A stretch of DNA of 38,631 bases from an uncultured Gammaproteobacteria bacterium (GCA_964360925.1 CAYHYP010000001.1:1-38631), one strand, 5' to 3'. Positions 3,292 to 30,388 are shown, counted from the stretch's first letter. A program made the numbers and translations. The notes: generated by a model from the letters alone, not told the origin.

Positions 3292-4509
3292 ATGTTAAGA
3301 AAATTTGTATTTATTATTTCTATAATGAAAAAAATATTTTTGAAATCATTTTTATTTGCCGTCTTTATCATTATCTCTGGTGTATATTTTGCATCTCAAA
3401 TATCAGCAGCCGAATACCCCCTTTCATCGCTTGATGGAAAAGTAAAAACAGTATTTGACAGTAAATTTGGAGGGGGTATCACCAAAATCTATGATTTTGA
3501 CAACTTGGGTAATCAAAATCTTGTTTTGGATTCTCAAGCAGGAGCCATGTTTCAGAATGCTTTTTGGCTTGATCCCAAACATCTTAATCCTCCGTGGCCA
3601 GCGGGGTGTGCCGGTAATAATGACCAGTTGTGGAGCAATCCTACACAAGCGGGGTATATTTTTGATGGTTTGGCGGGAAACCCAATTGGAGTTTTTGGAA
3701 TTACCAATACTGCAGATCCGAAAGAATTTATCCGTTTAGAAGAGAACGGCAACAAGATTCACTTTAAATCACGATTTATTCGCTATGATTTTTGTTCTGG
3801 GCAAGCAACCACTGATTCACAAAAAGACTGGGATACTAATTTTTATGTTGAACAATGGGCAAGTTTTAGCCCTCAATTTTCACACACCCTTGTTTTAAAA
3901 ACAAAAATTTCATATGAGGGTGACTATTCCCAATGGGAGAACAGCGATACCGATACGGTGCACAACGGCCATCCAGTAACTAAACAGTGGCCTATTATCT
4001 TTGGTTTGAACTTGACACGAATTGCTTACATAAAAAATGGGGTTAAAACATTTGAATCAACTACCGATCACCATTTCGATCCTGATGGGAATTGGGCAGC
4101 CCTCCTTTCAAGTACAAAAGATACGGGTATCGGAATGATACTTGATGGTAAAGTTGTTCCCCGGCAGGGTGGAAAATTCGGAGGCGGTATAGGTTCAGGA
4201 AATCAGCCGGGTCATGGGGTTGTAAATTGGGGGTTTCTTTATCCCGGTCCCTGGCTTGATCTTAAACAATTTGGTACGTTGGTAAATGTTACTCCTGACG
4301 GTTGGGGAGGATACGCATATAAACCCGAGGGATATTTTGAGTGGACTGCTTATTACCCAATCGGAAGCCTAAGCATGATTGAACAAGTAGCTAATACCAT
4401 AGCTGCATCTCCCCTCCCCGGCGTGACTATTTCCAATTTGCGTTCCCTTTTTCAAAACTTTACAAATATTTTTGATTATAATAATTTGGTGGGGAATTTT
4501 GGGAAATAA
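3292..4509 (+). CDS. secreted protein of unknown function with conserved 26-aa C-terminal tail
   Basis: The track ORF starts at 3127 but overlaps the previous gene. Likely starts are ATG 3292 or 3325 (MKKIFLKSFLFAVFIIISGVYFASQISAAE signal peptide). Ends in ISNLRSLFQNFTNIFDYNNLVGNFGK. Confidence 0.7.
   Translation: MLRKFVFIISIMKKIFLKSFLFAVFIIISGVYFASQISAAEYPLSSLDGKVKTVFDSKFGGGITKIYDFDNLGNQNLVLDSQAGAMFQNAFWLDPKHLNPPWPAGCAGNNDQLWSNPTQAGYIFDGLAGNPIGVFGITNTADPKEFIRLEENGNKIHFKSRFIRYDFCSGQATTDSQKDWDTNFYVEQWASFSPQFSHTLVLKTKISYEGDYSQWENSDTDTVHNGHPVTKQWPIIFGLNLTRIAYIKNGVKTFESTTDHHFDPDGNWAALLSSTKDTGIGMILDGKVVPRQGGKFGGGIGSGNQPGHGVVNWGFLYPGPWLDLKQFGTLVNVTPDGWGGYAYKPEGYFEWTAYYPIGSLSMIEQVANTIAASPLPGVTISNLRSLFQNFTNIFDYNNLVGNFGK
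4429..4509 (+). other. conserved C-terminal tail motif (half-dockerin-like), copy 1
   Basis: ISNLRSLFQNFTNIFDYNNLVGNFGK*. Paralogous tails at 6331-6411 and 10122-10202, remnant at 7705-7758. Confidence 0.7.
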
Positions 4510-5133: not shown

Positions 5134-6411
5134 ATGAAAAAAATATTATTATTTATTTTATTTTTTATTCTTATATCCCCACAACCAGTTTTGGCCTCGG
5201 TTGTTACCAATCGCACCGACGGCATCGCTCTTTTTAACAGCCAGCCATTTTTCCCCGTGGGGTTGTTTTATTGGTTTCCCAATGATAATCCCGCAGTTCC
5301 CACCGACCACTCCGGACAAATGCAAACTTTAAAAGACACTGGTTTTAATACGGTTTTTTTGGGAGGCAACAGAACTGATATATCTTATTTGGACCAGGCG
5401 CAGAATTTAGGATTAAAAGTGGTTAATTATAATGGTATATATAATAGTGATGCCAACTATATAAAAGCGATTGCTAATCACCCTTCTCTTCTTGCCTGGT
5501 ATGGAATTGACGAACCAAACTCAATTAATCTTTGCAACTGGAACCCAACAACAAAAACCTGCTCTTTTAACGATGCAAATCCAACCGTGAGTAATTTAAC
5601 AAATAAATATAACAGTCTTTGGTCAAACAATATTAACAACCATCCCATTTGGACAATTTATTCCATGGGGGAAACTAACGAACAGATTAAAGCCTGGCAC
5701 GAGTTGAGTAAATCATCTATTGGAGGAATTGATATCTATCCCGCAGTTTCGCAATTTACAAATTTCTGCGTTAAGAAAAATATTTCCTGTGTTGGAGAAA
5801 TGACTGACAAAGTGGTTGCTGCTCTTGGCAGCAATAAACCTGTTTGGATGGGGCTGCAGGGATTTACGACTTCACCTGAAGGCTATGGAGGAATCCCGCC
5901 TACATTAACTCAAACCCGTTTTATGGCTTATGATTCAATAGTCCACGGAGCAACGGGAATTTTTTGGTGGGATTATGATTTAAAAACTACTGATGATCTT
6001 TGGCGCAGTTTAAAACTTATGGTCACGGAATTGACAGATTCAAATATTAATCCTGCTTTGTTAGGAATCAATCGAACAATAACACAAAGCGGTCCGGTGA
6101 AAATATTATCAACTGCTGATGTCTCAGGGAAATATAAATATAAAATTGCCGTCAACGAAACAACACAACCCGCGGGAAACTATTCTATTTCCGGTTTTGC
6201 CCCCAATGCGGATGTTTTTGTTTTGGTGGAGAACCGCTGGCTCAAAGCTGATAACACAGGAGCTATCAATGACCGATTTGAGGACTGGTCCGTTCATCTC
6301 TACCGTCAGGAAATAATAAATATTGTGGACATTTCCGCCCTGCGTTCTCTCTTGCAAAACTTTACCACTATCTTTGACTATAATATTTTAGTGGGGAATT
6401 ACGGACGGTAA
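5134..6411 (+). CDS. secreted protein, possibly a TIM-barrel glycoside-hydrolase-like enzyme, with conserved C-terminal tail
   Basis: Signal peptide MKKILLFILFFILISPQPVLA. LLAWYGIDEPN resembles GH clan-A NEP-type motifs (weak). Ends in ISALRSLLQNFTTIFDYNILVGNYGR. Confidence 0.7.
   Translation: MKKILLFILFFILISPQPVLASVVTNRTDGIALFNSQPFFPVGLFYWFPNDNPAVPTDHSGQMQTLKDTGFNTVFLGGNRTDISYLDQAQNLGLKVVNYNGIYNSDANYIKAIANHPSLLAWYGIDEPNSINLCNWNPTTKTCSFNDANPTVSNLTNKYNSLWSNNINNHPIWTIYSMGETNEQIKAWHELSKSSIGGIDIYPAVSQFTNFCVKKNISCVGEMTDKVVAALGSNKPVWMGLQGFTTSPEGYGGIPPTLTQTRFMAYDSIVHGATGIFWWDYDLKTTDDLWRSLKLMVTELTDSNINPALLGINRTITQSGPVKILSTADVSGKYKYKIAVNETTQPAGNYSISGFAPNADVFVLVENRWLKADNTGAINDRFEDWSVHLYRQEIINIVDISALRSLLQNFTTIFDYNILVGNYGR
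6331..6411 (+). other. conserved C-terminal tail motif, copy 2
   Basis: ISALRSLLQNFTTIFDYNILVGNYGR*. Confidence 0.7.
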
Positions 6412-6448: not shown

Positions 6449-7027
6449 ATGCAAAGACTGAATTTGTTTAAGGTTCAACAAATACTTGGGAAGACCATAT
6501 TTACCCATCAGGATTTGGTGGCCGGTTTTGGAGTAAATAAGAGGGCGGTTGAGGCCTTTTTATCTTACAATTATCGAATGGGCAAGATTCAAAGGGTTCG
6601 TCGCGGTTTGTATTTTTTTACCGGTGAAACTATAGATACGTTTTCACTTGCCAACGTGATTTATGCCCCATCATACATTTCTTTAGAAACGGCGCTATCT
6701 TTTTATGGACTGATTCCGGAAGTTGTGTATAGCGTGACTTCAATTACGACAAGAACAACAAGGGAATTTGGTTTTAATGACATAAATTACAGTTACCAAT
6801 CAATAAAAACGGAGGCTTTTACCGGATATGTACCGATAGATAGAGATGGTATAAAAATTCTTATGGCTACCCCCGAAAAAGCCCTCGCGGATTATTATTA
6901 TTTTGTATCTTTAGGAAAGAAAACGGCAAATGATAGAATTAATATTGACAAAATAGATAAAAAAATTCTTAAAAATTATTTATCTTTATATGATCGACAA
7001 AAATTACTTGCAAACTATTGCCATTAA
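6449..7027 (+). CDS. AbiEi-family antitoxin / transcriptional regulator (type IV TA)
   Basis: Paralogous to 28068-28670 and 31888-32496 (shared PSYISLETALSFYGLIPE-type motif). Overlaps the downstream AbiEii-like gene. Confidence 0.7.
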   Translation: MQRLNLFKVQQILGKTIFTHQDLVAGFGVNKRAVEAFLSYNYRMGKIQRVRRGLYFFTGETIDTFSLANVIYAPSYISLETALSFYGLIPEVVYSVTSITTRTTREFGFNDINYSYQSIKTEAFTGYVPIDRDGIKILMATPEKALADYYYFVSLGKKTANDRINIDKIDKKILKNYLSLYDRQKLLANYCH

Positions 7028-7700
7028 AAACCAAACGACTTTTGATAATATTGCCAGAGAGTATCTTCAGCAATTATTTTTATCAATCTTCTATCAATTG
7101 CCGGGGAGCGAGAAATTTTTATTTAAAGGCGGGACCGCCTTACGCCTTATTTTTCGATCCCCGCGGTTTTCCGAAGACATCGATTTTTCGGTGACAGGCG
7201 AGATTTCGACATTTGAAAATATTCTCATAGATGTTCTTGAAGAACTTAAAAAAAATGACATCGATTGCCAATTAATAACCGCAGAAAAAACTACCGGCGG
7301 GTATATTGCAAAAATCTCGGCAAAGTTATACGACCAAAAATTTACCATATTATTTAATCTTTCTGAAAGAAGGAAAAAAACAGATAAAGGGGAGAGGAAC
7401 ACCATTACCGGGGATTATTTTCCGGCGTTCCCGGTTTCAATTTTAGAAAAAAAGAGTCTGATAAACGAAAAAATTGAAGCGCTTTTAATCCGTTCCAAGC
7501 CGCGTGACTTTTTCGACCTCTATTTTATTTTAAGATCAAATCTCTTATCAACCGCCGGGAAGGGAATTTTAAAAAAAGTTATCCCGGTCTTACAAAAAAC
7601 TAAACTTGATTTTAACCGGGAACTAAAAGTCTTTTTACCGAAATCCTACTGGCCCGTCATCAAAGATCTTAAAAGATTGTTGATGAATGAGATTGAATGA
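6990..7700 (+). CDS. AbiEii/AbiGii-family nucleotidyltransferase toxin
   Basis: FKGGTALRLIFRSPRFSEDIDFS nucleotidyltransferase motif. Gene order and overlap with AbiEi. Confidence 0.75.
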   Translation: MIDKNYLQTIAIKNQTTFDNIAREYLQQLFLSIFYQLPGSEKFLFKGGTALRLIFRSPRFSEDIDFSVTGEISTFENILIDVLEELKKNDIDCQLITAEKTTGGYIAKISAKLYDQKFTILFNLSERRKKTDKGERNTITGDYFPAFPVSILEKKSLINEKIEALLIRSKPRDFFDLYFILRSNLLSTAGKGILKKVIPVLQKTKLDFNRELKVFLPKSYWPVIKDLKRLLMNEIE

Positions 7701-7704
7701 AAAA

Positions 7705-7758
7705 AATAATAATATTTTTGATTATAATATCTTAGTGGGGAATTATGGGAAACTTTAA
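7705..7758 (+). pseudogene. orphan 3'-end remnant of a tail-motif gene
   Basis: Reads NNNIFDYNILVGNYGKL* in the 60-nt gap between the AbiEii gene and the ATPase gene. Near-identical at DNA level to the 3' ends of 3292-4509 and 5134-6411. Confidence 0.5.
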
Positions 7759-9104: not shown

Positions 9105-10202
9105 ATGAAAAAAATATTTTTAATTTCGCTTGTATTGACAACTACTTTATTCCTTAGGCCGAAAACAATTTTTGCTGAAAACGTGATGCTTCTTATTTTT
9201 AATCCGGTTATTGAATCTCAAAACAACCAAAAACTTAGTCAGTTTTTAAATTGGAGCGATCCCGATCAATTGACACAACAATATATTCTTGATGTCAAAG
9301 ATTCAAGCGGAGGAATAGTTAATTATCAGATTACTAAAAAGTTGGAAGTTGACGGCTTCCCCGTAAAGGCTGACGGATTTAAATACTCTGATGAGACGTA
9401 TTTAGAATGTTGGCGTGATCACTCCAAATGTCACAGTTCAGACAGTGTGGATTACTACAAAATTCTTTCGGATTACGATGTTTGCGGAAAAAGAAACCGG
9501 GATGAAATCCATGAACTTTGGATTTTTGGCGGTCCTTGGTTTGGTTATTGGGAGGCGGTTATGGCCGGCCTGGGAGCTTTTTGGACAAACGCCCCTCCCC
9601 TATATAACTCTACGTGTCAAAAACAACTGCACATTATGGGTTTTAGCTATGAACGGGGTGTTTCTGAAATGCTTGAAAATTTGGGCCATCGTGTCGAAGG
9701 AACAATGAGCCATTTATACAATGGCTGGGCTTTTGGATATGGCCCACCATCAACCCAGTTACCCACCTCATTAACTAATTGGGATAAATTTAGCGCTAAA
9801 GAATACGATCCGGGGGTAATAGCCGGTTGCGGATTTATTCACGGTAGTTTGAATACCCCTAATTATAACCCGAGTAATTATTGGAGCTATGATTGGGGAA
9901 ACACTAACTTTGTGCAAAGTACTTGCAACGACTGGTTAAATTTCCCTAACCTCACAAGTCAAACAGAAACAATCAATTGTCAGGCTTGGAACTGCACAGG
10001 ATACGGTTTTAAAAAATGGTGGTTTAACCACATCCCTCGCTATGAAGGTAAAACGGATGGTAAATGGAATAATTGGTGGCGCTATATTTTGGATTACGAA
10101 GAGGCCACTAAAGTAGTGAACATTTTAGATCTGCGTTCCCTATTACAGAGCTTTACTAATATCTTTGACTATAATAAACTAGTGGCAGATTATGGAAAAT
10201 AA
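9105..10202 (+). CDS. secreted Cys/Trp-rich protein with conserved C-terminal tail
   Basis: Start moved to ATG 9105 (MKKIFLISLVLTTTLFLRPKTIFA signal peptide), because the track start 9030 overlaps the divergent ATPase gene. Ends in ILDLRSLLQSFTNIFDYNKLVADYGK. Confidence 0.7.
   Translation: MKKIFLISLVLTTTLFLRPKTIFAENVMLLIFNPVIESQNNQKLSQFLNWSDPDQLTQQYILDVKDSSGGIVNYQITKKLEVDGFPVKADGFKYSDETYLECWRDHSKCHSSDSVDYYKILSDYDVCGKRNRDEIHELWIFGGPWFGYWEAVMAGLGAFWTNAPPLYNSTCQKQLHIMGFSYERGVSEMLENLGHRVEGTMSHLYNGWAFGYGPPSTQLPTSLTNWDKFSAKEYDPGVIAGCGFIHGSLNTPNYNPSNYWSYDWGNTNFVQSTCNDWLNFPNLTSQTETINCQAWNCTGYGFKKWWFNHIPRYEGKTDGKWNNWWRYILDYEEATKVVNILDLRSLLQSFTNIFDYNKLVADYGK
10122..10202 (+). other. conserved C-terminal tail motif, copy 3
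   Basis: ILDLRSLLQSFTNIFDYNKLVADYGK*. Its stop overlaps the start of the first cohesin-like gene. Confidence 0.7.
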
Positions 10203-11754
10203 AAAGAAACTAATTTTTTCCGTTCTTGGGTTGCTTCTGCTTACCGGTGGGCTGATTGCCGCCATCTTTATAGTTGGAAAACAGATAATTTTCCAAAACA
10301 AAGCCTTTACCGAAACCGGAACAGCAACTTTAACGGTCTCCCCTTCTTCCGGCACAAAAAACGTCGGAGATATTTTCCCTGTAAATTTTAAATTTGCCAC
10401 TGTGGGAGCCACCGAAAATGGAGTTAGCACAGTTCAGTTTGTCTTTAGTTTCCCCTCGAATTTAGATCTGGTTAACTCTTCAGGAAACCCGGTAAATCAA
10501 TTAACGATTGATCCCGCTTTTACCACAACAGGAACAAAATGGACTTTCCCATTTAACACAGTTACCAGAAGTGCCGGAATAGTTACTGTTCAATTTAGCG
10601 GAATTTATAGCGACACCGTTGGCTATATGACAGCCATACCGCTTACCCTTGCCACTGCCCATCTAAAAGCAGTTTCTTCCGGTGTAGCGAATTTTACTTT
10701 TGACCCGGTAAACACCGTTATTTTGACCAAGGGCTATCCCACTCAAGATATCCTAAAAACACCGGATTCTGTTTCTTTTACCATTTCTTCCGGCACAACC
10801 TCGGGTGTGGGGAAATTTGTATTTCCGGCAACGGCTACTATTCCCGTCGGTGAAACGCCAACACCGGTTCAAGTAAAACTTAATACCGGCAATGTCCCCG
10901 TATCTTCGTTATCTTTTAGATTAAATTATTCTTCTTCTGCACTTGAGACAATAAATATTGTCCCGGATATTACTTTGGCGGGTTCTGCCGATTGGGCATT
11001 TCCGGTCAAAACTATTACCCGATCCGACGGAGTGGTGACAATTGATTTTGCCGCAATAAATTCAAATATTGCCGGTTTTACATCTTCTACCGATACTATT
11101 CTGGCGACCATTAACTTTAAGGCAAACAGTATTCCCATCACCAATCCCGTTATTCTTTCTTTTGATGCTACCAAAACCAGCATTTTATCTAAAGCCTCAC
11201 CCCCTGTGGAAATACTGCAAACGCCCACCAGCCTTTCTTATACTATTGTTGCTGCTGCCCCACTCCCCCCAACCCTAAGTTTTGGTTTTAAAGTTCAAGG
11301 AGTGACGACTGCCAATATTACAAAAACTTTCACTGTAACCGTTAAGGGGACAACAACCTCGGATATTAGTCAGACACTTACCAGTGGCGCCAACGGCGTT
11401 TTCAGAGCTACCAACGTGACTATGCCCAACGTTGGAACAGCCGTTAATATTTTTGTCAAAAGTTCAAATACTTTAAAGAAAAAGCTTGGCTCCGTAAATT
11501 TAATTCCCGGACCAAATATTGCTCCCGTTGCTTGGGAAAGCATTGCCCTACTGACCGGTGACTTTGACAGTAACAATATCTTTAATATCACCGATATTGC
11601 CAAAATGCTGCAAAATTATACAGCTCTTTCAACTCCTGTCACTACGGCGAATGGTTTTGGGATATACGATGCAGACAATGACGGTAATTATGCTCTAAAA
11701 GATCTTGCTATTATTTTGAGTAATTTTACAGACTTAAGTAAACCTGGTGACTAA
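10192..11754 (+). CDS. surface scaffold protein: signal anchor + 2 cohesin-like modules + beta-sandwich + dockerin
   Basis: N-terminal TM helix. Two paralogous modules (TLTVSPSSGTKNVGDIFPV..KWTFPFNTVT..FTFDPVNTVI and VPVSSLSFRLNY..DWAFPVKTIT..LSFDATKTSI). C-terminal duplicated F-hand. Confidence 0.7.
   Translation: MENKKKLIFSVLGLLLLTGGLIAAIFIVGKQIIFQNKAFTETGTATLTVSPSSGTKNVGDIFPVNFKFATVGATENGVSTVQFVFSFPSNLDLVNSSGNPVNQLTIDPAFTTTGTKWTFPFNTVTRSAGIVTVQFSGIYSDTVGYMTAIPLTLATAHLKAVSSGVANFTFDPVNTVILTKGYPTQDILKTPDSVSFTISSGTTSGVGKFVFPATATIPVGETPTPVQVKLNTGNVPVSSLSFRLNYSSSALETINIVPDITLAGSADWAFPVKTITRSDGVVTIDFAAINSNIAGFTSSTDTILATINFKANSIPITNPVILSFDATKTSILSKASPPVEILQTPTSLSYTIVAAAPLPPTLSFGFKVQGVTTANITKTFTVTVKGTTTSDISQTLTSGANGVFRATNVTMPNVGTAVNIFVKSSNTLKKKLGSVNLIPGPNIAPVAWESIALLTGDFDSNNIFNITDIAKMLQNYTALSTPVTTANGFGIYDADNDGNYALKDLAIILSNFTDLSKPGD
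11548..11751 (+). other. dockerin-like domain (two F-hand repeats)
   Basis: GDFDSNNIFNITDIAKMLQNYT ... YDADNDGNYALKDLAIILSNFT. Confidence 0.7.
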
Positions 11755-12829
11755 AAAAATATTATTATCAATATTGAGTCTGTTTCTCCTGGTGGTGGGT
11801 TTGGTTGTGTCCAGTTTACTCGTTTACCGTCAGGTTAATTTAAGATCTAAGGCTACCGTCAACGGAGTTACCTTGTCTTTGGCTTCCGGCAAAACCACGG
11901 TAAATCCGGGTGAATCTTTTGATGTTGTCATCAATTTAAACAATACGACCACCAATAAAATTACCGCCGCAAGTGTGTTTTTAACTTACCCTTCAGATAA
12001 ATTAACCTTGACTTCAATTACCCCCGGAGCATTTTTTTTGGCGAGCTACAACAGTGCAACCACGGAAATGCTTAATAAAACGGATATTACTACTGTCGGA
12101 GTAGGAAAATTACTTATTGGAGTCCCCTGCACTATTTCTTCCCCTTGGGTTTGTTACCCCCAAACAACGGCCGCCGGACAAGTAGCCACTTTTAGATTTC
12201 AAGTTAAAACCACTGCTGCTGTGGGAAATGTAACGATTGGTTTTGACGACACAAATACAGCCATATCCGCTTTAGACTCTGCCGGGAATGCTATTCCTAC
12301 CAGCATCTTGTCCGGGAAGACCCCTGTAGTCATTACCATCAAGTCCCCAGAAATTACCCCCGCAACTTTGACGTTTAGTTTCAAACTACTGCAAAATAAT
12401 AACACTGTAGCCAGGACAGCCGATGTTTTGCTAAAAAGCAGCTCTCAAACATTGTCATTTACAAACATTGCCCTAACAGGAAATAACGGGGTCTTTAGCC
12501 CATCAACACCTATTACCTTAACCGGTATAACCGCCGGGACAACATATGACGTTCTGGTAAAAGTACCCGGCTATTTACGAAAGAAGATTGGCACTACCGG
12601 TACTACTACCTGGAATAACATCCTGCCTCTGGCCGGTGATTTTGACGGCAACAATATTCTTAACATCCTTGATATAGGTAATATCTTAGGGTTGTATAAT
12701 GCAATTAGTGTCTCGGTAACCGCGGTAACCCGGGTTTATGATCTTGACGGTAACGGCGTCATTAATATCTTAGACGTAGCCAATACTATAGCCAGCTATA
12801 CAGCTATATCGGTTTTGGGAGATAATTAA
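11747..12829 (+). CDS. surface scaffold protein: signal anchor + cohesin-like module + beta-sandwich + dockerin
   Basis: 8-nt overlap with the upstream gene. TM helix. GVTLSLASGKTTVNPGESFDVVINL module. C-terminal dockerin. Confidence 0.65.
   Translation: MTKKILLSILSLFLLVVGLVVSSLLVYRQVNLRSKATVNGVTLSLASGKTTVNPGESFDVVINLNNTTTNKITAASVFLTYPSDKLTLTSITPGAFFLASYNSATTEMLNKTDITTVGVGKLLIGVPCTISSPWVCYPQTTAAGQVATFRFQVKTTAAVGNVTIGFDDTNTAISALDSAGNAIPTSILSGKTPVVITIKSPEITPATLTFSFKLLQNNNTVARTADVLLKSSSQTLSFTNIALTGNNGVFSPSTPITLTGITAGTTYDVLVKVPGYLRKKIGTTGTTTWNNILPLAGDFDGNNILNILDIGNILGLYNAISVSVTAVTRVYDLDGNGVINILDVANTIASYTAISVLGDN
12623..12826 (+). other. dockerin-like domain (two F-hand repeats)
   Basis: GDFDGNNILNILDIGNILGLYN ... 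YDLDGNGVINILDVANTIASYT. Confidence 0.7.
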
Positions 12830-12835
12830 AATATT

Positions 12836-13309
12836 ATGAATCTTATTTCTGCCCTATTTTTAGCGGTAACAACTTTTTTCCAAAGTATATTTGGGATAGA
12901 AACTCCACCTCCGCCGATTGTTAATACTATTAGAGTATATCTTGTTCCTACTGCCACCGATTTGGAAATTCACATATCAGGTAGTAATCAAAATCTAAGT
13001 GCCATTGCTGTCAGGCTGGTTTATCATTACTCAAAAACCCCAAGCGGAATAACCATTACTCCAAACGCGCTTTTATTTAAAGATAATTGGAATTTCCCGG
13101 TTAAAAAAACTATTGTCAACGCCGCCCAAAAAGCGGTAACTTTAGATTTAGCTGCGGTGAATATTAGTACGACCGGGTATCTTTTAAATTCCGATCTCTT
13201 GTTGGCCAAAATTAACTCTTCTGCCGGATTGGATCAATTCTCGTTTGATCAAAAGGAGACAAAAATTTATGGTAAAAACACAAATGAAATCCCTCTTATT
13301 TTTAACTGA
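12836..13309 (+). CDS. small secreted single cohesin-like module protein
   Basis: Signal-like N-terminus. DNWNFPVKKTIV..LDLAAVN..FSFDQKETKI matches the module landmarks of the neighbouring genes. Confidence 0.6.
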   Translation: MNLISALFLAVTTFFQSIFGIETPPPPIVNTIRVYLVPTATDLEIHISGSNQNLSAIAVRLVYHYSKTPSGITITPNALLFKDNWNFPVKKTIVNAAQKAVTLDLAAVNISTTGYLLNSDLLLAKINSSAGLDQFSFDQKETKIYGKNTNEIPLIFN

Positions 13310-14151
13310 TGGAAACAAATATGAAACGGAATATTATCATCGGCATAGTTATTTTTATCTTCCTGGTCGGGGGTTTGGGTGTGGGTTTATTTTTGGTAAA
13401 TCAAAAACAGGATGTTCGCAGTAAAGCATCAACTGATATAGGAACTGCCATCATTAACCTTTCCCCCACCACGGGAAACATCACTGCCGGTAGTTCATTA
13501 CCAATCACTATATCCCTTAACCCCGCCGGAAATGTTATTTCTGCTTTTGCTATCCGGATAAATTATTCCTATTCCGGAACAATTCCCGATCTTACCGCGG
13601 AAAATTTTCAAATTAGCCCGGCGCTTACATCCGGCGGAGATTGGACTTGCCCGGTAAAAAAATTTACTGCCGCCGGTGGAAAAGCCAATATAGACATTGC
13701 TTGCGCGAATACCAGCACAACCGGATATTCCGGCAGTGGAGTCATTAATTTAGCCACAGTTTCTTTGACCGCCACTGCCTCTGCGGCCAACAACACTTAC
13801 ACTTTGGCCTTTGACCCAAAAGAAAGTATCATCACTAAAAAATCAGACAGTTTAGATATCCTTCTTACTCCTAACAGTCGTGGGACTTACACTGTTTCCG
13901 GCACGAGTATTACTCACAAGTATTCCTGCAACACTGCCGGCACTTGTGTCCAGAATGATGCCACCGGCACTTATACAAATGCTAATTGCAATAACAGCTG
14001 TACTCCTCCTCCCCCGCCACCGGTAGTACCACCTCCGGTAACACCACCACCCACCACCCTACCCGTCACCGGCAATCCTTTCTTGACTTTTGGTTTGGCA
14101 GTAGTAGGCGTTATTGTCTCTTTTTCCTCGCTTCTTTTACTCAAGCGCTAA
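13309..14151 (+). CDS. sortase-anchored cohesin-like protein (anchoring scaffold)
   Basis: Start overlaps the previous stop (alternative ATG 13321). TM/signal, cohesin-like module (GDWTCPVKKFT..LAFDPKESII), Pro-rich linker, then LPVTG + hydrophobic helix + KR. Confidence 0.7.
   Translation: METNMKRNIIIGIVIFIFLVGGLGVGLFLVNQKQDVRSKASTDIGTAIINLSPTTGNITAGSSLPITISLNPAGNVISAFAIRINYSYSGTIPDLTAENFQISPALTSGGDWTCPVKKFTAAGGKANIDIACANTSTTGYSGSGVINLATVSLTATASAANNTYTLAFDPKESIITKKSDSLDILLTPNSRGTYTVSGTSITHKYSCNTAGTCVQNDATGTYTNANCNNSCTPPPPPPVVPPPVTPPPTTLPVTGNPFLTFGLAVVGVIVSFSSLLLLKR
14059..14148 (+). other. LPXTG cell-wall sorting signal
   Basis: LPVTGNPFLTFGLAVVGVIVSFSSLLLLKR at the extreme C-terminus, preceded by PPPPPPVVPPPVTPPPTT. 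Confidence 0.75.
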
Positions 14152-14169: not shown

Positions 14170-14850
14170 ATGTATCCGATTGTTCAAGCACCGAATGAAA
14201 TTTTGAGAACCCCGGCTGTGCCGTCTAATTTAACGCCGGAAAAACTTAAAAAAATAATTTCTGAAATGACAAAAACTCTTTTGGCGCAGAAAGATCCTGA
14301 AGGAGTGGGATTGGCGGCAAACCAAGTGGGACTTCCCTACCAAATTTTTTTGGCCCGATTTACTACTAAGAAATCCGAACCTGTCCGTGTTTTCATCAAT
14401 CCTAAAATTATTGACCATAGTGAAGAAATTCAAGAAGAAACAAAGAATTCTCCTCTTGAAGGTTGTCTCTCCGTACCAAAATATTATGGAGTAGTGAAAA
14501 GATGGAAATGGGTGAAAATGGAATACCAAGCACCACCGTCATCCTGGAGCCACGCCGTTCGTCATCCTGGAGCGAGTGAAACGAGCGATAGGATCTATCC
14601 TGGTAAAAAGATTCTATCGCCCTTCGGGCTCCAGAATGACGCTGGGGTTTCGCTCCAGCATGACGACGAAATTTTAGAAACTAGAACCGAAACTTTTGAG
14701 GGGTTTCCGGCTGTGGTTATTCAACACGAAATGGATCATTTGAATGGGAAAATTTTTGTGGAAAGAATTTTGGAACAAAACGGCCAAATGTATAAAGTAA
14801 CCGGAAAAGATAAAAAAGGCAAAGAAAAATGGGAAGAGGTAGAGCTGTAA
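14170..14850 (+). CDS. def: peptide deformylase with ~45-aa repeat-derived insertion
   Basis: All three PDF motifs are present: GLAANQVG, EGCLSVP, HEMDHLNG. The insert lies between motifs 2 and 3. Confidence 0.9.
   Translation: MYPIVQAPNEILRTPAVPSNLTPEKLKKIISEMTKTLLAQKDPEGVGLAANQVGLPYQIFLARFTTKKSEPVRVFINPKIIDHSEEIQEETKNSPLEGCLSVPKYYGVVKRWKWVKMEYQAPPSSWSHAVRHPGASETSDRIYPGKKILSPFGLQNDAGVSLQHDDEILETRTETFEGFPAVVIQHEMDHLNGKIFVERILEQNGQMYKVTGKDKKGKEKWEEVEL
14538..14665. repeat. GTCAT-hairpin repeat cluster, in frame in def
   Basis: Same unit order as 1030-1140, with an extra 5' partial unit. Translated SSWSHAVRHPGASETSDRIYPGKKILSPFGLQNDAGVSLQHD. Confidence 0.9.
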
Positions 14851-15278: not shown

Positions 15279-16196
15279 ATGAAAAATCAGAGGGTTGCAT
15301 TTTTTGGAACATCAAAATATTGTTTGCCGGTTTTGGAGGCTTTGAAAAACCTGCCTGCCGGCAGGCAGGAATTGGTTCTTGTAATTACCCGCGAAGATAA
15401 ACCTGTGGGGAGAAAACAAATTTTGACACCGTCTCCCGTTAAACAATGGGCAATTAAAAATGGAATTAAAGTAGATTCTAGCGGCGTAGCCGCGAGCTTG
15501 CTCATCGCCCCGCCAACGGCGGGGCTCCAGAATGACGAAAAAGTAGATTTGGCAATCGTTGCTGATTACGGAAAAATTATAAAACACGAAGTTTATGAAA
15601 AACCAAAACTGGGAACCTTTAATATCCATTTTTCAAAATTGCCGGAACTTCGTGGCCCCTCCCCAGTGCAATCAACATTGTTACGCGGTGACAAAACCGC
15701 TTGGATAACAATTTATAAACTTAAATATTATCCCGAACTGGAAATTAAAATGGATTCCGGTCCTATTTTATGGCAAAAAGAATATCCCATCCTACCCGAC
15801 GACACCACCGAATCTTTGTATACCAGATTATTCCAAGAAATCGCCAAGGAAATACCGGAAATAATAAATTCTCTAGCCGCTTGCCGCTTGCCGCTAATTT
15901 CTCAAGACCACTCCAAAGCTACTTTTTGCAAAATGCTAACTAAGGATGATGGATTTATTGAATGGGATCTTTTGAAAAACAGTATGTATGTTGCATGTTG
16001 CGATCGCAACATGATACCTACATCTCGAGTTGAAAAATTATATAACCAATATAGAGCGATGTACCCTTGGCCGGGAATATGGACTATTAAAGATGGAAGA
16101 CGAATGAAAATTTTGAAATGCCATTTGGAAAAAGAAAAAATTGTTTTGGATGAAATCCAATTTGAAGGAAAAACCCCGGAAAAATACAAAAACTAG
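15279..16196 (+). CDS. fmt: methionyl-tRNA formyltransferase with two repeat-derived insertions
   Basis: N-terminal formyltransferase fold (VAFFGTS.., ITREDKPVGRKQILTPSPVK, NIHFSKLPELRGPSPVQ). Sits next to def. Confidence 0.9.
   Translation: MKNQRVAFFGTSKYCLPVLEALKNLPAGRQELVLVITREDKPVGRKQILTPSPVKQWAIKNGIKVDSSGVAASLLIAPPTAGLQNDEKVDLAIVADYGKIIKHEVYEKPKLGTFNIHFSKLPELRGPSPVQSTLLRGDKTAWITIYKLKYYPELEIKMDSGPILWQKEYPILPDDTTESLYTRLFQEIAKEIPEIINSLAACRLPLISQDHSKATFCKMLTKDDGFIEWDLLKNSMYVACCDRNMIPTSRVEKLYNQYRAMYPWPGIWTIKDGRRMKILKCHLEKEKIVLDEIQFEGKTPEKYKN
15350..15369. repeat. perfect 20-bp palindrome CCTGCCTGCCGGCAGGCAGG, in frame in fmt (LPAGRQ)
   Basis: Identical 20-mer at 26377-26396. Imperfect copy at 19566-19585. 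Confidence 0.85.
15474..15537. repeat. GTCAT-hairpin repeat unit (reverse orientation, long form), in frame in fmt
   Basis: gattctagcggcgtagccgcgagcttgctcatcgccccgccaacggcggggctccagaatgacg. Confidence 0.85.
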
Positions 16197-18290: not shown

Positions 18291-18965
18291 CTACATATAT
18301 TTTTTCTTTAACCGGATCGTTTCGCCGGAAAAATATTTCTTAATTTGCCCCCAATCAACTTTTCTAAACATCTTTGGCATTTCCGTTGTTTCAGTTTCCA
18401 CAAAATAAGAAAGACCCAGCAAAAAACTGTATACTCCGGATTCAAAATTACCATATTTTTCTCGGTATATTTCCAGACAACTATCCAAAGAAATATTTTG
18501 ATAATAAGATAATTCGTACAAATCAACAAAGTCTTTTTTGGTGCCACGATTCATAACTGCCCCTATTTTCATTGCCCCAATCTCTCTTGGGTCTAAAATT
18601 GGTATTCCCAAAAAATCATGTGTAGGAAATATTACGGGGTAAGAATAACGAAAAAGACTACAATGAGTTTGTCCATACGCCCAAAGAAGAGTATCGTCTG
18701 CAACTCTGTCCTCGGTATATTTTCCAAGTTTTTTAAGTTCAAAAGAAAGAGTCGGTTGGTGAAAAGATTTTGGGATAAAAAAATCCAAATCAACAGAAAT
18801 TCTATGGCCAAAATGCAAAGCCAATGCTGTTCCCCCTGCCAAATATGTCCCCTTTGGCAAAGTGTTTGTTTTTCCTAGTATGGCCAGACACTCCTGCGCA
18901 TCTCCCGGTAAGACTTTTGTAAACATAAAACCTGATTTTGGGGGATATTTAACACCAACTGCCAA
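18291..18965 (-). CDS. AbiEii-like nucleotidyltransferase (putative toxin)
   Basis: LAGGTALALHFGHRISVDLDFF motif. The stop codon directly abuts the 3' end of tRNA-Tyr. The true start may be ATG 18926. Confidence 0.65.
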   Translation of the reverse strand: MAVGVKYPPKSGFMFTKVLPGDAQECLAILGKTNTLPKGTYLAGGTALALHFGHRISVDLDFFIPKSFHQPTLSFELKKLGKYTEDRVADDTLLWAYGQTHCSLFRYSYPVIFPTHDFLGIPILDPREIGAMKIGAVMNRGTKKDFVDLYELSYYQNISLDSCLEIYREKYGNFESGVYSFLLGLSYFVETETTEMPKMFRKVDWGQIKKYFSGETIRLKKKYM

Positions 18966-19200: not shown

Positions 19201-20232
19201 TTATTTCTCATTGTTAAAAAAATTCAAAGTATCTTTAACTGCCTCGTTCCATTTTGGAACCATATTGTGATCTGCCCCCACGTACTCTTTATAAACTAAT
19301 TTGAAATTTAAAATTTGAAATTTGAAATTAAAGTCGCGATTCCAACGAACCGGAACCCATTCGTCAGCTTCTCCCTGTTGAATAAATATTGGCGCTTTTA
19401 TACTGTCTAAATATTTATCAAACGAATATTTATTGACGTCATAATCTTTTTCAAAATCAGCGGTGGCTTTTCTTAACCACAAACCTTCATCTTTATAACC
19501 GTCGGTATAATATAAAATGTTATATGGAAAAGATTTGGTCACCGGATTCCATAAAACCGTAGGAACCTGCCTACCGGCAGGCAAGATGGTTAATATTGTC
19601 AGAGCAATTTGCCCGCCATTGGAATGACCCCATAACATTAATTTACAACTGTCATCCTGACGAAGGTCAGGATCTCTCAACTTGTTTGAGTTAACACTCG
19701 CATTCGCGAGAGATGCTGAAACAAGTTCAGCATGACAGATTGAAGCTATTAAATCCATATTCGTGGTATACGTCAAAAATCTATTTTCAAAATCATCCCG
19801 ATGGCCATCGGGATCAGATTCCCCATATCCCAAAAAATCGGGGGCAAAAGTGACATAACCGTTTTTTGCCAGAACCTCGGCAACTTTTTGGGTTCCAAAA
19901 CCGGGAAAATATTCTCCCTCGTCTGCCGAACCATGAAGCAATAAAATTGCCGGTTTAACAGTGGCACTTTGGGTAGCTCCGTTTATTATTCCGGAAATTT
20001 TTTTGCCGTCGGAAGAATAATAAAATTTGTTGCCGGAAAAAGTAATCTCCGAAGGGATCCCTCCCCGTTTGCGTAAATTCTCTATCGTATATTTGTCCAG
20101 GGGTTTTTCAAAAAAGGGTTTGATTAAAGGAGAAGCCGGATATCTTTCTTTGAAATTTCCAAGCAAAAATATAACACTTACAATTATAATCGTAATTAAT
20201 AAAATTAAAAATCCAACCAGCCACTTTTTCAT
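19201..20232 (-). CDS. membrane-anchored alpha/beta hydrolase (S9/dienelactone-hydrolase-like) with repeat insertions
   Basis: N-terminal TM helix. Nucleophile elbow GHSNGG. Late GADH. Repeat inserts at 19566-19585 and 19651-19736. Confidence 0.7.
   Translation of the reverse strand: MKKWLVGFLILLITIIIVSVIFLLGNFKERYPASPLIKPFFEKPLDKYTIENLRKRGGIPSEITFSGNKFYYSSDGKKISGIINGATQSATVKPAILLLHGSADEGEYFPGFGTQKVAEVLAKNGYVTFAPDFLGYGESDPDGHRDDFENRFLTYTTNMDLIASICHAELVSASLANASVNSNKLRDPDLRQDDSCKLMLWGHSNGGQIALTILTILPAGRQVPTVLWNPVTKSFPYNILYYTDGYKDEGLWLRKATADFEKDYDVNKYSFDKYLDSIKAPIFIQQGEADEWVPVRWNRDFNFKFQILNFKLVYKEYVGADHNMVPKWNEAVKDTLNFFNNEK
19566..19585. repeat. imperfect copy of the CCTGCC..GGCAGG palindrome, inside the hydrolase gene
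   Basis: cctgcctaccggcaggcaag. Translated LPAGRQ on the minus strand. Confidence 0.7.
19651..19736. repeat. 86-nt composite triple-hairpin element, copy A (inside the hydrolase gene)
   Basis: gtcatcctgacgaaggtcaggatc-tctcaacttgtttgag..ctcgcattcgcgagaga-tgctgaaacaagttcagcatgac. Confidence 0.9.
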
Positions 20233-21285: not shown

Positions 21286-21462
21286 ATGGCGAAAAAGGGA
21301 GAAGCAACTATTAAACTTGGAATGACATGCACAGTGTGTAAAACCCGGGGTTATTTGACGTCAAAAAACAAAATGGAAAATAAAGAGAAACTTGTTTTGT
21401 CAAAATATTGCCGGAAATGCCGAAAACACACATCACACAAAGAGGTTGAAAAATTAAAATAA
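21286..21462 (+). CDS. rpmG: 50S ribosomal protein L33
   Basis: Not in the ORF track (58 aa). MAKKGEATIKLGMTCTVCKTRGYLTSKNKMENKEKLVLSKYCRKCRKHTSHKEVEKLK, with CxxC...CxxC. Confidence 0.85.
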   Translation: MAKKGEATIKLGMTCTVCKTRGYLTSKNKMENKEKLVLSKYCRKCRKHTSHKEVEKLK

Positions 21463-21531
21463 GTCATTCCAGCGAAGTGTCATGCTGAAATTTTTTCAGC
21501 ATCTGAGATCCTGAAACAAGTTCAGGATGAC
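21463..21531. repeat. GTCAT-hairpin cluster starting 1 nt after the rpmG stop
   Basis: gtcattccagcgaagt-gtcatgctgaaattttttcagcatc-tgagatcctgaaacaagttcaggatgac. Confidence 0.85.
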
Positions 21532-21557
21532 AATATAGCAAACACGGTGACACACGC

Positions 21558-22658: not shown

Positions 22659-22663
22659 TTTCT

Positions 22664-22749
22664 GTCATCCTGACGAATGTCAGGATCTCTCAATTTGTTT
22701 GAGTAATTTCTCGCATTCGCGAGAGATGCTGAATCGAGTTCAGCATGAC
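22664..22749. repeat. composite triple-hairpin element, copy B (6 nt after the murF stop)
   Basis: Near-identical to 19651-19736 and 36686-36769. Confidence 0.9.
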
Positions 22750-22753
22750 ACTA

Positions 22754-22782
22754 TTGACATTTTTATTATGGAGACCTATAAT
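22754..22782 (+). promoter_or_regulatory. consensus sigma70 promoter TTGACA-17-TATAAT
   Basis: TTGACA 22754-22759, TATAAT 22777-22782. No annotated gene for ~160 nt downstream. Confidence 0.6.
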
Positions 22783-25043: not shown

Positions 25044-25045
25044 GC

Positions 25046-26447: not shown

Positions 26448-26480
26448 ACAAGGAAGATTATAAATTGTAAATTTTGGAGT

Positions 26481-30280: not shown

Positions 30281-30286
30281 AACTAC

Positions 30287-30366: not shown

Positions 30367-30388
30367 AATTTGAAAGGTGGTGAGAATT

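What the first reader, a model, noticed from the sequence alone, without database searches (positions are those of the whole stretch)
9105..14151. Cellulosome-like cohesin/dockerin operon ending in an LPXTG-anchored scaffold
Five paralogous ~140-150-aa beta-rich modules are visible across four consecutive overlapping ORFs. Shared landmarks are an N-terminal T.L.(L/V)SP..G, a central (D/K)W.(F/C)P(V/F)(K/N)..T, and a C-terminal F(S/T/A)FD..(K/E)(T/S).I.

The first two proteins end in duplicated F-hand dockerin segments: GDFDSNNIFNITDIAKMLQNYT + YDADNDGNYALKDLAIILSNFT, and GDFDGNNILNILDIGNILGLYN + YDLDGNGVINILDVANTIASYT. The last protein ends in PPPPPPVVPPPVTPPPTT + LPVTG + a hydrophobic helix + KR, a canonical sortase signal.

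This is the architecture of an anchoring scaffoldin plus adaptor scaffoldins. It is translationally coupled (10192/10202 overlap) to a secreted protein that carries the tail motif. In a tiny, probably episymbiotic CPR cell this could be an attachment or enzyme-display apparatus rather than a cellulosome.
Basis: partly seen in the sequence, partly recalled or inferred. Interest (0 to 1): 0.75.

Follow-up and report, generated by a model that had tools for sequence, protein, structure and literature searches.

The report
Cohesin-dockerin surface display operon in CPR
A tiny uncultivated (CPR/Patescibacteria) bacterium carries an operon built like a cellulosome scaffold: five cohesin modules, two dockerins and a wall-anchoring signal. 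It appears to load neighbouring secreted proteins through a new 28-residue stripped-down dockerin tail that has lost its calcium loops.

Summary
Four consecutive genes (10192-14151) encode five paralogous ~150-aa modules. All are cohesins. P3 passes Pfam Cohesin. The other four belong to a divergent, mostly Pfam-invisible subfamily whose profile matches solved cohesins (E 3e-7) and whose AlphaFold model superposes on them (target TM-score 0.65-0.75). P2 and P3 end in genuine two-loop dockerins; these are sub-threshold individually but clear at family level (E 2e-8 to solved dockerins). P5 ends in Pro-rich stalk + LPVTG + TM + KR.

No sortase is in the window, so that step stays inferred. The organism is a Microgenomates-type CPR bacterium.

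The new result concerns the 28-aa tail on three secreted neighbours (3325-4509, 5134-6411, 9105-10202). It is a collapsed dockerin: two helix half-repeats with the Ca-loop residues 1-8 missing. P1's homologs carry canonical dockerins at the same position, and one-loop intermediates exist in metagenomes. Tail genes sit next to cohesin/dockerin genes in three independent loci.

It is cellulosome-like in architecture but not a cellulosome, because no glycoside hydrolase cargo is detectable. Binding has not been shown. The closest precedent is R. flavefaciens ScaE plus truncated group-2 dockerins.

The parts
3325..4509 (+). Cargo C1: secreted protein (signal peptide MKKIFLKSFLF...), unknown fold, ending in the 28-aa tail (4423-4506).
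   Evidence: No Pfam or PDB relatives. A near-identical tail end occurs in Hainich groundwater contig L034.
5134..6411 (+). Cargo C2: secreted protein (signal peptide MKKILLFILFFILISPQPVLA), unknown fold, ending in the 28-aa tail (6325-6408).
   Evidence: No Pfam or PDB relatives. The tail DNA is 75% identical to the other two tails over 88 nt.
7700..7752 (+). Orphan remnant of tail-coding DNA (...NNIFDYNILVGNYGKL*), second half-repeat only, with no gene body. It lies between the AbiEii gene and the AAA_14 gene.
   Evidence: repeat family D4, 83% to 4454-4506; translation.
9105..10202 (+). Cargo P1: secreted 365-aa protein of a widespread uncharacterised family. It ends in the 28-aa tail (10116-10199) and its stop overlaps the P2 start by 11 nt.
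   Evidence: AlphaFold pLDDT is 89.6, with the tail modelled as two helices (aa 340-349 and 353-363). Foldseek gives only weak metzincin-like matches.
10192..11754 (+). P2, adaptor scaffoldin-like protein: N-terminal signal/TM; cohesin A (10315-10791); cohesin B (10801-11253); beta-sandwich middle domain (~11260-11530); dockerin (11530-11751) with Ca-loops at 11560-11595 and 11668-11703.
   Evidence: (3l8q cohesin dyad E 8e-11; single cohesins at target TM-score 0.65-0.75).
11747..12829 (+). P3, adaptor scaffoldin-like protein: signal/TM; Pfam-detectable cohesin (11858-12346); middle beta-domain; dockerin (12608-12823) with Ca-loops at 12638-12673 and 12740-12775.
   Evidence: PF00963, 29.2 bits against a gathering cut-off (GA) of 24.1. 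(end-to-end alignment with 3KCP CipA Coh-X-DocII, E 1.7e-5)..
12836..13309 (+). P4: small secreted stand-alone cohesin (12920-13306). It has a signal peptide, no dockerin and no anchor, and lacks the last strand region of the other modules.
   Evidence: HMM E 4e-31. P4-like short orthologs occur among the subfamily representatives.
13309..14151 (+). P5, anchoring scaffoldin-like protein: signal/TM; single cohesin (13438-13902); Cys-rich linker; Pro-rich stalk (14005-14058); LPVTG (14059-14073); hydrophobic helix + KR.
   Evidence: Homologs end in LPVTG, MPVTG, LPETG, MPATG, LPSTG, LPEAG, LPDSG and similar, followed by a TM helix.

Best explanation
This is a cell-surface protein-display system built from cohesin-dockerin parts, in a Microgenomates-type CPR bacterium.

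Proposed mechanism:
1. All proteins are exported by Sec.
2. P5 is cleaved at LPVTG by a sortase encoded elsewhere in the genome and is linked to peptidoglycan. Its Pro-rich stalk holds a single cohesin away from the wall.
3. P2 (two cohesins) and P3 (one cohesin) carry C-terminal two-loop dockerins. They dock onto cohesins of the anchor and/or of each other, forming a branched scaffold. P4 is an unanchored extra cohesin.
4. Cargo is loaded through a 28-aa C-terminal tail on at least three secreted proteins of the locus (C1, C2, P1).

The tail is a collapsed dockerin. It keeps the two cohesin-contacting helices (VNILDLRSLLQSFT + NIFDYNKLVADYGK) but has lost residues 1-8 of both Ca-binding loops, so binding is probably Ca-independent.

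Shown: the homology and fold of cohesins and dockerins, the derivation of the tail from dockerins, and the conserved gene neighbourhood.

Inferred: that the parts bind one another, which cohesin takes which ligand, sortase processing, and what the cargo does. The cargo is probably hydrolases or lectins acting on host or polymer surfaces.
For: Cohesins:
- P3 passes Pfam Cohesin.
- The eight best PDB hits of the five-module profile are all cohesins.
- The 38-sequence subfamily profile aligns full length with CohA2 6kgc at E 3.3e-7.
- The P2 model (modules at pLDDT 80-94) hits the 3l8q cohesin dyad at 8e-11, 3kcp at 1e-8, and single cohesins at target TM-score (TMt) 0.65-0.75.

Dockerins:
- The family profile hits 8ajy_B, 2b59_B, 3kcp and 2y3n_B at E 2e-8 to 2e-7.
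- 13 of 13 members hit Dockerin_1.
- There are four canonical Ca-loops.

Conserved system:
- The same five-gene order occurs in L001, and variants occur in L004 and L007, the latter including a dockerin-bearing S8 protease next to LPxSG-anchored cohesins.
- Of 150 subfamily representatives, 48 end in [LMIV]Px[TSA]G+TM and 41 carry dockerin loops.

Tail as dockerin:
- P1-family homologs carry canonical dockerins exactly where P1 has the tail, and degenerate intermediates exist.
- A dockerin HMM hits each tail twice at 12-22 bits; 1 of 5000 shuffles reaches the minimum score.
- One-loop intermediates such as GDLNSDGKVNIDDFRQFIASFT-NIFDYNKLISNF occur in L020 and L023.
- The tail is predicted as helix-turn-helix.
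- Tail genes abut DOC/COH genes in the window, L001 and L020.

Precedent: functional one-loop ~40-aa dockerins bind the sortase-anchored scaffoldin ScaE (PMC12270676).
Against: - No binding has been measured or modelled; AlphaFold-Multimer was not available.
- No sortase is in the window or in 290 kb of related loci.
- P2's and P3's own dockerins score below Pfam's cut-off (14.7 and 12.0 bits against 22.9). The dockerin region of the P2 model has pLDDT below 50.
- hhalign of the tail against the dockerin profile gives only 58% probability over 17 columns.
- Loss of both Ca-loops could mean loss of function rather than Ca-independent binding.
- One tail-bearing gene (L014) has no cohesin or dockerin gene within 8 kb.
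- Cargo function is unknown.
Confidence: 0.7

Rival explanations
1. It is a true cellulosome: the scaffold organises plant-polysaccharide-degrading enzymes for cellulose or hemicellulose breakdown.
For: The architecture is identical in logic to cellulosomal anchoring and adaptor scaffoldins. Relatives' tail proteins include an F5/8 type C lectin domain (48 bits), a sub-threshold CBM_4_9 and a weak GH99-like stretch. Microgenomates are reported to have more glycoside hydrolases than other CPR (PMC7143001).
Against: None of the three tail-bearing proteins in the window matches any GH or CBM family in Pfam, or any solved structure by sequence. P1's fold looks weakly metzincin-like and not GH-like. 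No CBM is present on any scaffold protein. A related locus docks a subtilisin-like protease instead.
Confidence: 0.1
2. The cohesin-dockerin scaffold is real, but the 28-aa tail is not a cohesin ligand. It would be a decayed dockerin relic, or a signal for another process such as secretion, wall association or oligomerisation.
For: Both Ca-loops are missing, and canonical dockerin folding depends on Ca. The hhalign support is modest. One tail gene lies away from any cohesin gene (L014). The tail is very narrowly distributed: 2 of 185,579 GTDB species representatives matched the exact pattern.
Against: The tail is strongly conserved across unrelated cargo bodies (nine invariant columns, 68% mean column identity) and even at DNA level, which argues for function rather than decay. 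It always sits at the extreme C-terminus, where dockerins sit. One-loop natural dockerins and engineered half-dockerins do bind cohesins (PMC12270676). Three independent loci place tail genes directly upstream of DOC/COH genes.
Confidence: 0.2
3. The modules are generic beta-sandwich surface-protein domains, such as S-layer-like proteins, adhesins or sortase-assembled pilus subunits. Under this reading the EF-hand-like C-termini simply bind calcium, and there is no cohesin-dockerin pairing.
For: Foldseek also lists Ig-like multidomain proteins, an S-layer protein (7ptp) and the pilin SpaD. The family is Pfam-invisible in 90% of members. Type IV pilin genes lie next to the operon in L001.
Against: Those non-cohesin matches have target TM-scores of 0.07-0.24, against 0.65-0.75 for single cohesins. 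In the sequence-profile searches the significant hits are all cohesins. For the C-terminal profile the nine best hits are dockerins, with generic EF-hand proteins following at weaker E-values. Cohesin and dockerin co-occur in one operon and across the family. No CnaB-type domain was seen.
Confidence: 0.05

Closest known systems
Ruminococcus flavefaciens ScaE anchoring scaffoldin with adaptor scaffoldins and truncated group-2 dockerins (PMC12270676; PDB 8AJY, 9GVB)
   Same: A single-cohesin protein is tethered to the wall through a sortase-type signal. Dockerin-bearing adaptor scaffoldins plug into it. Short, naturally truncated dockerins (~40 aa, helix-loop-helix) act as functional ligands. 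The one-loop forms in L020 and L023 match this type, and 8ajy_B is the top PDB hit of the dockerin profile.
   Different: The host here is a CPR bacterium, not a rumen Firmicute. The cohesins belong to a divergent subfamily. The window's tails have no intact Ca-loop at all, whereas group-2 dockerins keep one. The cargo is not recognisable CAZymes. Nothing has been tested biochemically.
Clostridium (Acetivibrio) thermocellum CipA C-terminal CohI9-X-DocII fragment (PDB 3KCP, 4FL4, 2B59)
   Same: P3 aligns end to end with it: cohesin, then a beta-sandwich spacer, then a dockerin (E 1.7e-5). The P2 model matches it structurally (E 1e-8).
   Different: X-module homology of the spacer is not demonstrated on its own (E 0.25). 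CipA has nine cohesins and a CBM3, and it is anchored non-covalently through SLH-domain proteins rather than by an LPXTG protein.
Non-cellulosomal cohesin/dockerin-containing proteins of diverse bacteria and archaea. A survey titled with 'three domains of life' is cited by 23 papers found; my knowledge of it is from memory (Peer et al. 2009).
   Same: Cohesin and dockerin modules are used outside cellulose degradation, often with proteases or unknown domains as cargo.
   Different: Here there is a complete multi-tier operon with an anchor, in CPR, and a lineage-specific minimal dockerin derivative. I found no description of this in the searchable literature.
Dockerin-domain protein SEML1_0315 of the Saccharibacterium Southlakia epibionticum (PMC10633639)
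   Same: It is a CPR envelope protein with a dockerin domain. It is reported as essential and is proposed to act on host surface glycans.
   Different: It comes from a different CPR class. No cohesin partner or scaffold operon is described, and I did not establish any relationship to the present genes.

Membership tests
Cohesin (Pfam PF00963) | Sequence match to the family HMM above the gathering score | tested here: met
   This row is for P3 only: 29.2 bits against a gathering cut-off (GA) of 24.1, aa 48-169.
Cohesin (Pfam PF00963) | Sequence match to the family HMM above the gathering score (the other four modules: P2-A, P2-B, P4, P5) | tested here: not met
   No Pfam hit at E<=1. Only 10 of 100 subfamily representatives hit PF00963 at E<=1e-3. 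Homology rests instead on profile-vs-PDB searches (E 3.3e-7 to CohA2; cohesins fill the top of the list) and on paralogy.
Cohesin (Pfam PF00963) | Nine-stranded beta-sandwich jelly-roll superposable on solved cohesins | tested here: met
   In the P2 model, modules A and B have pLDDT 80-94. Foldseek gives 3l8q 8e-11, and 4ums, 6kgc, 1g1k, 2vn5 and 4uyp at target TM-score 0.65-0.75 and rmsd 3.4-3.9. P4 and P5 were not modelled and are inferred from 29-36% identity to P2-A and P2-B.
Cohesin (Pfam PF00963) | Binds a cognate dockerin | not testable with these tools
   No multimer prediction or experiment was available.
Dockerin (Pfam PF00404) | Two tandem ~22-residue segments, each a 12-residue Ca-loop (D1, D/N3, D/N5, D/E12) followed by a helix | tested here: met
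   P2: DFDSNNIFNITD and DADNDGNYALKD. P3: DFDGNNILNILD and DLDGNGVINILD. Each is followed by a helix-forming stretch ending (Y/F)(T/N).
Dockerin (Pfam PF00404) | Sequence match to the family HMM above the gathering score | tested here: not met
   P2 scores 14.7 bits and P3 12.0 bits against GA 22.9. At family level, 13 of 13 relatives hit Dockerin_1 at E<=1 (best 2e-6), and the profile's top PDB hits are dockerins at E 2e-8 to 1e-5.
Truncated single-repeat dockerins (R. flavefaciens group 2 type) | ~40 aa, one intact Ca-binding repeat, helix-loop-helix | tested here: not met
   The window tails are 28 aa and have no intact loop; for example, P1's loop positions 1/3/5 are Y/E/T. Helix-turn-helix is predicted. 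The related forms in L020 and L023 do meet the definition.
Sortase substrate (LPXTG cell-wall sorting signal) | C-terminal LPXTG, then a hydrophobic segment, then basic residue(s); N-terminal export signal | tested here: met
   LPVTG at aa 251-255, then 23 mostly hydrophobic residues, then KR; N-terminal hydrophobic signal. The NCBIfam LPXTG-protein model matches only weakly (E 0.029). Homologs vary as [LM]Px[TAS]G.
Sortase substrate (LPXTG cell-wall sorting signal) | A sortase encoded in the same genome | not testable with these tools
   No Sortase Pfam hit appears among the window ORFs. No TLxTC signature appears in the window or in 290 kb of related loci. The rest of the genome is not available. 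A complete Microgenomates genome is reported to encode a sortase (PMC7143001).
Cellulosome sensu stricto | Dockerin-bearing glycoside hydrolases or other CAZymes as cargo, and a substrate-binding CBM on the scaffoldin | tested here: not met
   No GH or CBM Pfam family appears on any window protein of the locus. Only sub-threshold CBM_4_9 and GH99 hints and one F5/8 type C domain appear, and those are in relatives.
X-module (type II X-Doc dyad) | Ig-like module immediately N-terminal to the dockerin, homologous to CipA/ScaA X-modules | tested here: inconclusive
   The position and a predicted 7-strand beta-sandwich agree, at pLDDT ~60. P3 aa 242-345 aligns with X-DocII 2b59_B at E 9e-4, but that score is driven by the dockerin. 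The spacer profile alone gives only E 0.25 to 4wi0_B.

The most novel reading that the evidence does not exclude
The 28-residue tail would be the smallest natural dockerin known: a calcium-loop-less helix-turn-helix that still binds a CPR-type cohesin. It would serve as the cargo-loading tag of a lineage-specific surface display system that episymbiotic CPR cells use to arm their surface with hydrolases or lectins. The system would be part of a large cohesin subfamily (at least 788 clusters at 50% identity) that routine annotation misses.
Probability: 0.45. Interest if true: 0.78.

Novelty: new variant of a known kind. Interest (0 to 1): 0.66.

Why it matters
CPR bacteria make up a large share of bacterial diversity and mostly live attached to other cells, yet their surface machinery is largely unannotated.

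This locus shows that a complete, multi-tier cohesin-dockerin scaffold with a wall anchor exists in Microgenomates. It belongs to a subfamily of hundreds of clusters, 90% of which Pfam does not flag.

That yields a concrete, testable model for how these cells display secreted proteins. It also gives a handle, the tail or a dockerin, for listing the displayed cargo genome-wide.

The loop-less tail, if it binds, extends the recent finding that dockerins can be halved. It would be a natural, very short and possibly Ca-independent affinity tag of biotechnological interest.

Tried and rejected
The taxonomy therefore rests on named homologs: Patescibacteria, Blackburnbacteria, Gottesmanbacteria and Beckwithbacteria.
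- My first Ca-loop regex was off by one residue and found nothing.
- The tail profile against the PDB gave only chance-level hits (FcpB, E 0.11).
- hhalign of the tail against the dockerin profile aligned only the first half, at 58% probability. An HMM built from the dockerins of the P1 family was more informative.
- The random-fragment control was contaminated by real dockerins in the source proteins, so I disregarded it. The shuffle control was used instead.
- The middle-domain profile against the PDB gave spurious designed-repeat hits.
- The P1 family profile, C1 and C2 have no significant sequence relatives in the PDB. The P1 fold search gave only weak metzincin-like matches (E 4e-3, TM 0.33-0.39), too weak to assign a function.
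- The promoter/terminator scan gave nothing decisive and no clear terminator between P5 and def.
- The sortase TLxTC motif scan was negative.
- The pilin/adhesin reading was rejected on TM-scores.

Full report
**1. The observation**

They are tightly packed. P1/P2 overlap by 11 nt, P2/P3 by 8 nt, P3 and P4 are 6 nt apart, and P4/P5 share TGATG.

The quoted peptides are exact. The five ~150-aa modules are paralogous far beyond chance. BLASTP gives P2-B vs P5 1e-16, P2-A vs P5 2e-15, P2-B vs P4 2e-9 and P4 vs P5 5e-10. The C-terminal halves of P2 and P3 match at 9e-19.

**2. Context and organism**

The window is a cellular contig. It carries Wzy_C, UbiA, def, fmt, pyrD, an M50 protease, a Mur ligase, nusG-L11-L1-L10 and four tRNAs. 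GC content is about 39%.

It equals an NCBI contig of 38,631 bp, for which no name was retrievable. Named homologs are all Patescibacteria of the Microgenomates group: Gottesmanbacteria, Blackburnbacteria, Beckwithbacteria and 'Patescibacteria group bacterium'. Near-identical fragments come from 0.1-um-filtered Hainich groundwater.

**3. Cohesins**

Pfam recognises only P3 (PF00963, 29.2 bits against a cut-off of 24.1). The other four modules are nevertheless cohesins, on four lines of evidence:
- A profile of the five modules retrieves cohesins as its eight best PDB hits, six of them at E 1e-3 to 6e-3; the only other hit is a tail fiber at E 4.9.
- An exhaustive HMM search of 1.84 billion representatives finds 788 relatives at E<=1e-3 and 272 at E<=1e-10.
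- A 38-sequence profile of that subfamily aligns full length with C. acetobutylicum CohA2 (6kgc) at E 3.3e-7.
- An AlphaFold model of P2 has both modules at pLDDT 80-94. Its best Foldseek matches are the ScaA cohesin dyad 3l8q (8e-11), CipA Coh-X-Doc 3kcp/4fl4 (1e-8), and a long list of single cohesins at target TM-score 0.65-0.75. Ig-like, pilin and S-layer matches stay at 0.07-0.24.

Only 10 of 100 subfamily representatives reach Pfam Cohesin at E<=1e-3. This is therefore a divergent cohesin subfamily that routine annotation mostly misses. P3 represents a second, more canonical cohesin type that co-occurs with it in these operons.

**4. Dockerins**

P2 and P3 each end in two canonical 12-residue Ca-loops followed by helices. 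Individually they score below Pfam's cut-off (14.7 and 12.0 bits against 22.9).

A profile of 13 homologous C-termini has solved dockerins as its best PDB hits: 8ajy_B 2.4e-8, 2b59_B 3.5e-8, 3kcp 1.2e-7 and 2y3n_B 2.2e-7. All 13 members hit Dockerin_1, with a best E of 2e-6. P3 as a whole aligns end to end with the CipA CohI9-X-DocII fragment (E 1.7e-5).

The spacer between cohesin and dockerin is a predicted beta-sandwich in the X-module position. Its homology to X-modules is not demonstrable on its own (E 0.25).

**5. Anchor**

P5 ends in a Cys-rich linker, an 18-residue Pro-rich stalk, LPVTG, 23 hydrophobic residues and KR. Its 16 homologs end in LPVTG, MPVTG, LPETG, MPATG, LPSTG, LPEAG, LPDSG, LPVSG and similar, each followed by a TM helix.

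Among the top 150 subfamily representatives:
- 48 carry an [LMIV]Px[TSA]G+TM C-terminus.
- 41 carry C-terminal Ca-loops.
- About 20 are short stand-alone modules like P4.

The family-wide logic is thus a cohesin plus an anchor, a dockerin, or nothing. This is what a self-assembling scaffold needs.

No sortase is encoded in the window. No TLxTC signature occurs in the window or in 290 kb of related loci. The rest of the genome could not be reached. A complete Microgenomates genome is reported to encode a sortase (PMC7143001). Sortase processing is therefore inferred and has not been shown.

**6. Conservation of the system**

L001 (59% identical P5) has the same order: tail proteins, a P2 homolog (two cohesins + dockerin), a P3 homolog, a P4 homolog and a P5 homolog.

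L004 is a more distant locus in the same chromosomal neighbourhood (M50, fmt, def, Wzy_C). It has two LPDxG-anchored cohesin proteins and three dockerin-bearing proteins.

L007 (Ca. Blackburnbacteria) places a 1099-aa subtilisin-like protease carrying a canonical double dockerin next to cohesin proteins, one of which (282 aa) ends in LPVSG plus a TM helix. That is direct support for enzyme display on anchored cohesins in this group.

**7. The tail**

Three secreted proteins of the window end in the same 28 residues: C1 3325..4509, C2 5134..6411 and P1. The consensus is (V)xIxxLRSLLQNFTNIFDYNxLVGN(Y/F)G(K/R), with nine invariant columns across nine examples. The tails are 75% identical at DNA level even though the gene bodies are unrelated.

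The tail matches no Pfam, NCBIfam or PDB entry. Five results identify it as a collapsed dockerin:
- **Same position as dockerins in homologs.** P1's core belongs to a widespread uncharacterised family (152 hits) that normally ends at NNWWRYxxD. In CPR-like members the core is followed by canonical double dockerins (P0040, 41, 56, 59, 64, 78, 90, 118), by degenerate intermediates (P0034, 44, 45, 47), or by the tail. So the tail occupies the dockerin's position on the same domain.
- **HMM similarity.** An HMM built from those eight dockerins hits every tail twice. This resolves the tail into two 14-residue half-repeats, VNILDLRSLLQSFT + NIFDYNKLVADYGK, each equal to loop positions 9-12 plus the following helix. 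Scores are 12.3-21.8 bits. Among 5000 shuffled tails, one reaches 12.3 and none reaches 17.9.
- **Intermediates.** Metagenome contigs L020 and L023 carry forms such as GDLNSDGKVNIDDFRQFIASFT-NIFDYNKLISNF. These have an intact first Ca-loop and helix joined directly to the loop-less second half.
- **Predicted structure.** AlphaFold models P1's tail as helix-turn-helix (aa 340-349 and 353-363).
- **Gene neighbourhood.** In the window, L001 and the independent contig L020, tail genes lie directly upstream of dockerin and cohesin genes on the same strand. L014 is an exception.

The tail is very narrowly distributed. The exact back-translated pattern occurs in 2 of 185,579 GTDB species representatives and in six metagenome loci.

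**8. Comparison with the known**

The closest described system is the R. flavefaciens cellulosome. There the single-cohesin scaffoldin ScaE, which the paper describes as cell-surface-attached, receives adaptor scaffoldins. It also binds ~40-aa 'group-2' dockerins that retain only one Ca repeat and form a helix-loop-helix. Engineered half-dockerins from other species bind as well (PMC12270676).

The one-loop CPR forms match that class. The window's tails go one step further by having no loop at all.

It is not a cellulosome in the strict sense. No GH or CBM family is detectable on the window's cargo, and P1's fold gives only weak metzincin-like matches.

The searchable literature mentions dockerins in CPR only in passing, for example an essential dockerin-domain protein in a Saccharibacterium (PMC10633639). 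It does not link cohesins or cellulosomes with Microgenomates. That library covers open-access papers only.

**9. Mechanism and confidence**

Shown:
- Five cohesin-fold modules and two dockerins.
- A sortase-type sorting signal.
- A dockerin-derived tail on three secreted neighbours.
- Conservation of this arrangement in relatives.

Inferred:
- P5 is wall-anchored.
- P2 and P3 dock through their dockerins.
- Tails load cargo onto cohesins, possibly without calcium.

Which cohesin takes which ligand is unknown. Within the window the count is five cohesins against five candidate ligands.

I put about 0.9 on the cohesin/dockerin identity, about 0.7 on the assembled surface scaffold, about 0.75 on the tail being dockerin-derived, and about 0.5 on it being a functional cohesin ligand.

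**10. Verdict**

It is a new variant of a known kind of system:
- a cohesin-dockerin scaffold in a new and poorly understood lineage;
- built from a largely unannotated cohesin subfamily;
- with a previously undescribed minimal dockerin derivative as its probable cargo tag.

Noticed in passing
window 514-552, 1036-1146, 14537-14671, 15465-15506, 19649-19754, 21454-21534, 22662-22767, 25040-25157, 26421-26718, 29996-30040, 30286-30390, 33549-33787, 34194-34311, 35135-35217, 35590-35625, 36196-36354, 36685-36786, 37054-37103, 37610-37661, 37895-37947: The window holds dozens of copies of short palindromic repeat modules, such as CGTCATTCTGGAGCCCGAAGGGCGATAGAATCTTT and GAGATGCTGAAACAAGTTCAGCATGACA. 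Several lie inside open reading frames: Wzy_C, def (giving the insert ...KILSPFGLQNDAGVSLQHDDE...), fmt, and the N-terminal extension of the L1 ORF. They look like REP/MITE or Rickettsia-palindromic-element-like insertions tolerated in frame.
   Followed up: partly
window 7700-7752: An orphan copy of the second half of the tail-coding sequence (...NNIFDYNILVGNYGKL*) has no gene body. It lies between an AbiEii toxin gene and a minus-strand AAA_14/DUF4143 ATPase gene. It is probably a relic of rearrangement around the AbiE cassette, which also interrupts the cargo/scaffold locus in L001.
   Followed up: partly
window 10192-10310, 11747-11860, 13309-13440; also 78 of 150 subfamily representatives: P2, P3, P5 and about half of the subfamily share a distinctive N-terminus: K/R-rich start, a long hydrophobic helix, then a conserved Q-x(2-5)-(R/K)-x(1-3)-A motif (for example LVNQKQDVRSKAS). 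It may be a lineage-specific signal-peptide or signal-anchor type. Whether it is cleaved is unknown.
   Followed up: no
window 9105-10115 (P1 core) and homologs P0031-P0149: P1's ~300-aa core is a widespread family with no Pfam or PDB relatives, found in CPR, Ignavibacteria, Chloroflexota and others. It has invariant H, E, W and Y residues, including an ExxExxGHxxE stretch, and a confident AlphaFold model (pLDDT 89.6) that matches metzincin protease domains only weakly. It is a candidate new enzyme family.
   Followed up: partly
window 6449-7700, 18291-18965 (-), 27274-28670 (-), 31888-32496 (-): The 38 kb window contains three AbiEii toxin genes with adjacent AbiEi-like antitoxin ORFs, plus a further AbiEi-like ORF. 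This is a high density of type IV toxin-antitoxin modules for a small genome.
   Followed up: no
window 37263-38600 (-): A 445-aa protein carries a Peptidase_S74 domain (intramolecular chaperone of endosialidase/tail-fibre type; 57 bits). This suggests a phage-tail-fibre-like or self-cleaving surface fibre protein. Palindromic repeats lie within the gene (37610-37661, 37895-37947) and just upstream of it (37054-37103).
   Followed up: no
L010, L011 (GTDB genome CAYHSW01): A MAG deposited as 'uncultured Gammaproteobacteria bacterium' carries two genuine tail-bearing proteins otherwise seen only in Microgenomates-type CPR. The label is probably wrong or the bin is contaminated.
   Followed up: no
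window 13906-14004 (P5 aa 200-232); P0018-P0020: Cys-rich linkers occur between modules: four Cys in P5 (KYSCNTAGTCVQNDATGTYTNANCNNSC), and longer Cys-rich inserts in P2 homologs that are absent from P2 itself. These are variable, probably disulfide-stabilised spacers.
   Followed up: no
L001 9691-18692: In the closest syntenic relative, the scaffold operon is followed directly by a type IV pilus cluster: several N_methyl pilins, the prepilin peptidase and PilM. Two surface systems are thus adjacent. In the window, def and fmt follow instead.
   Followed up: no
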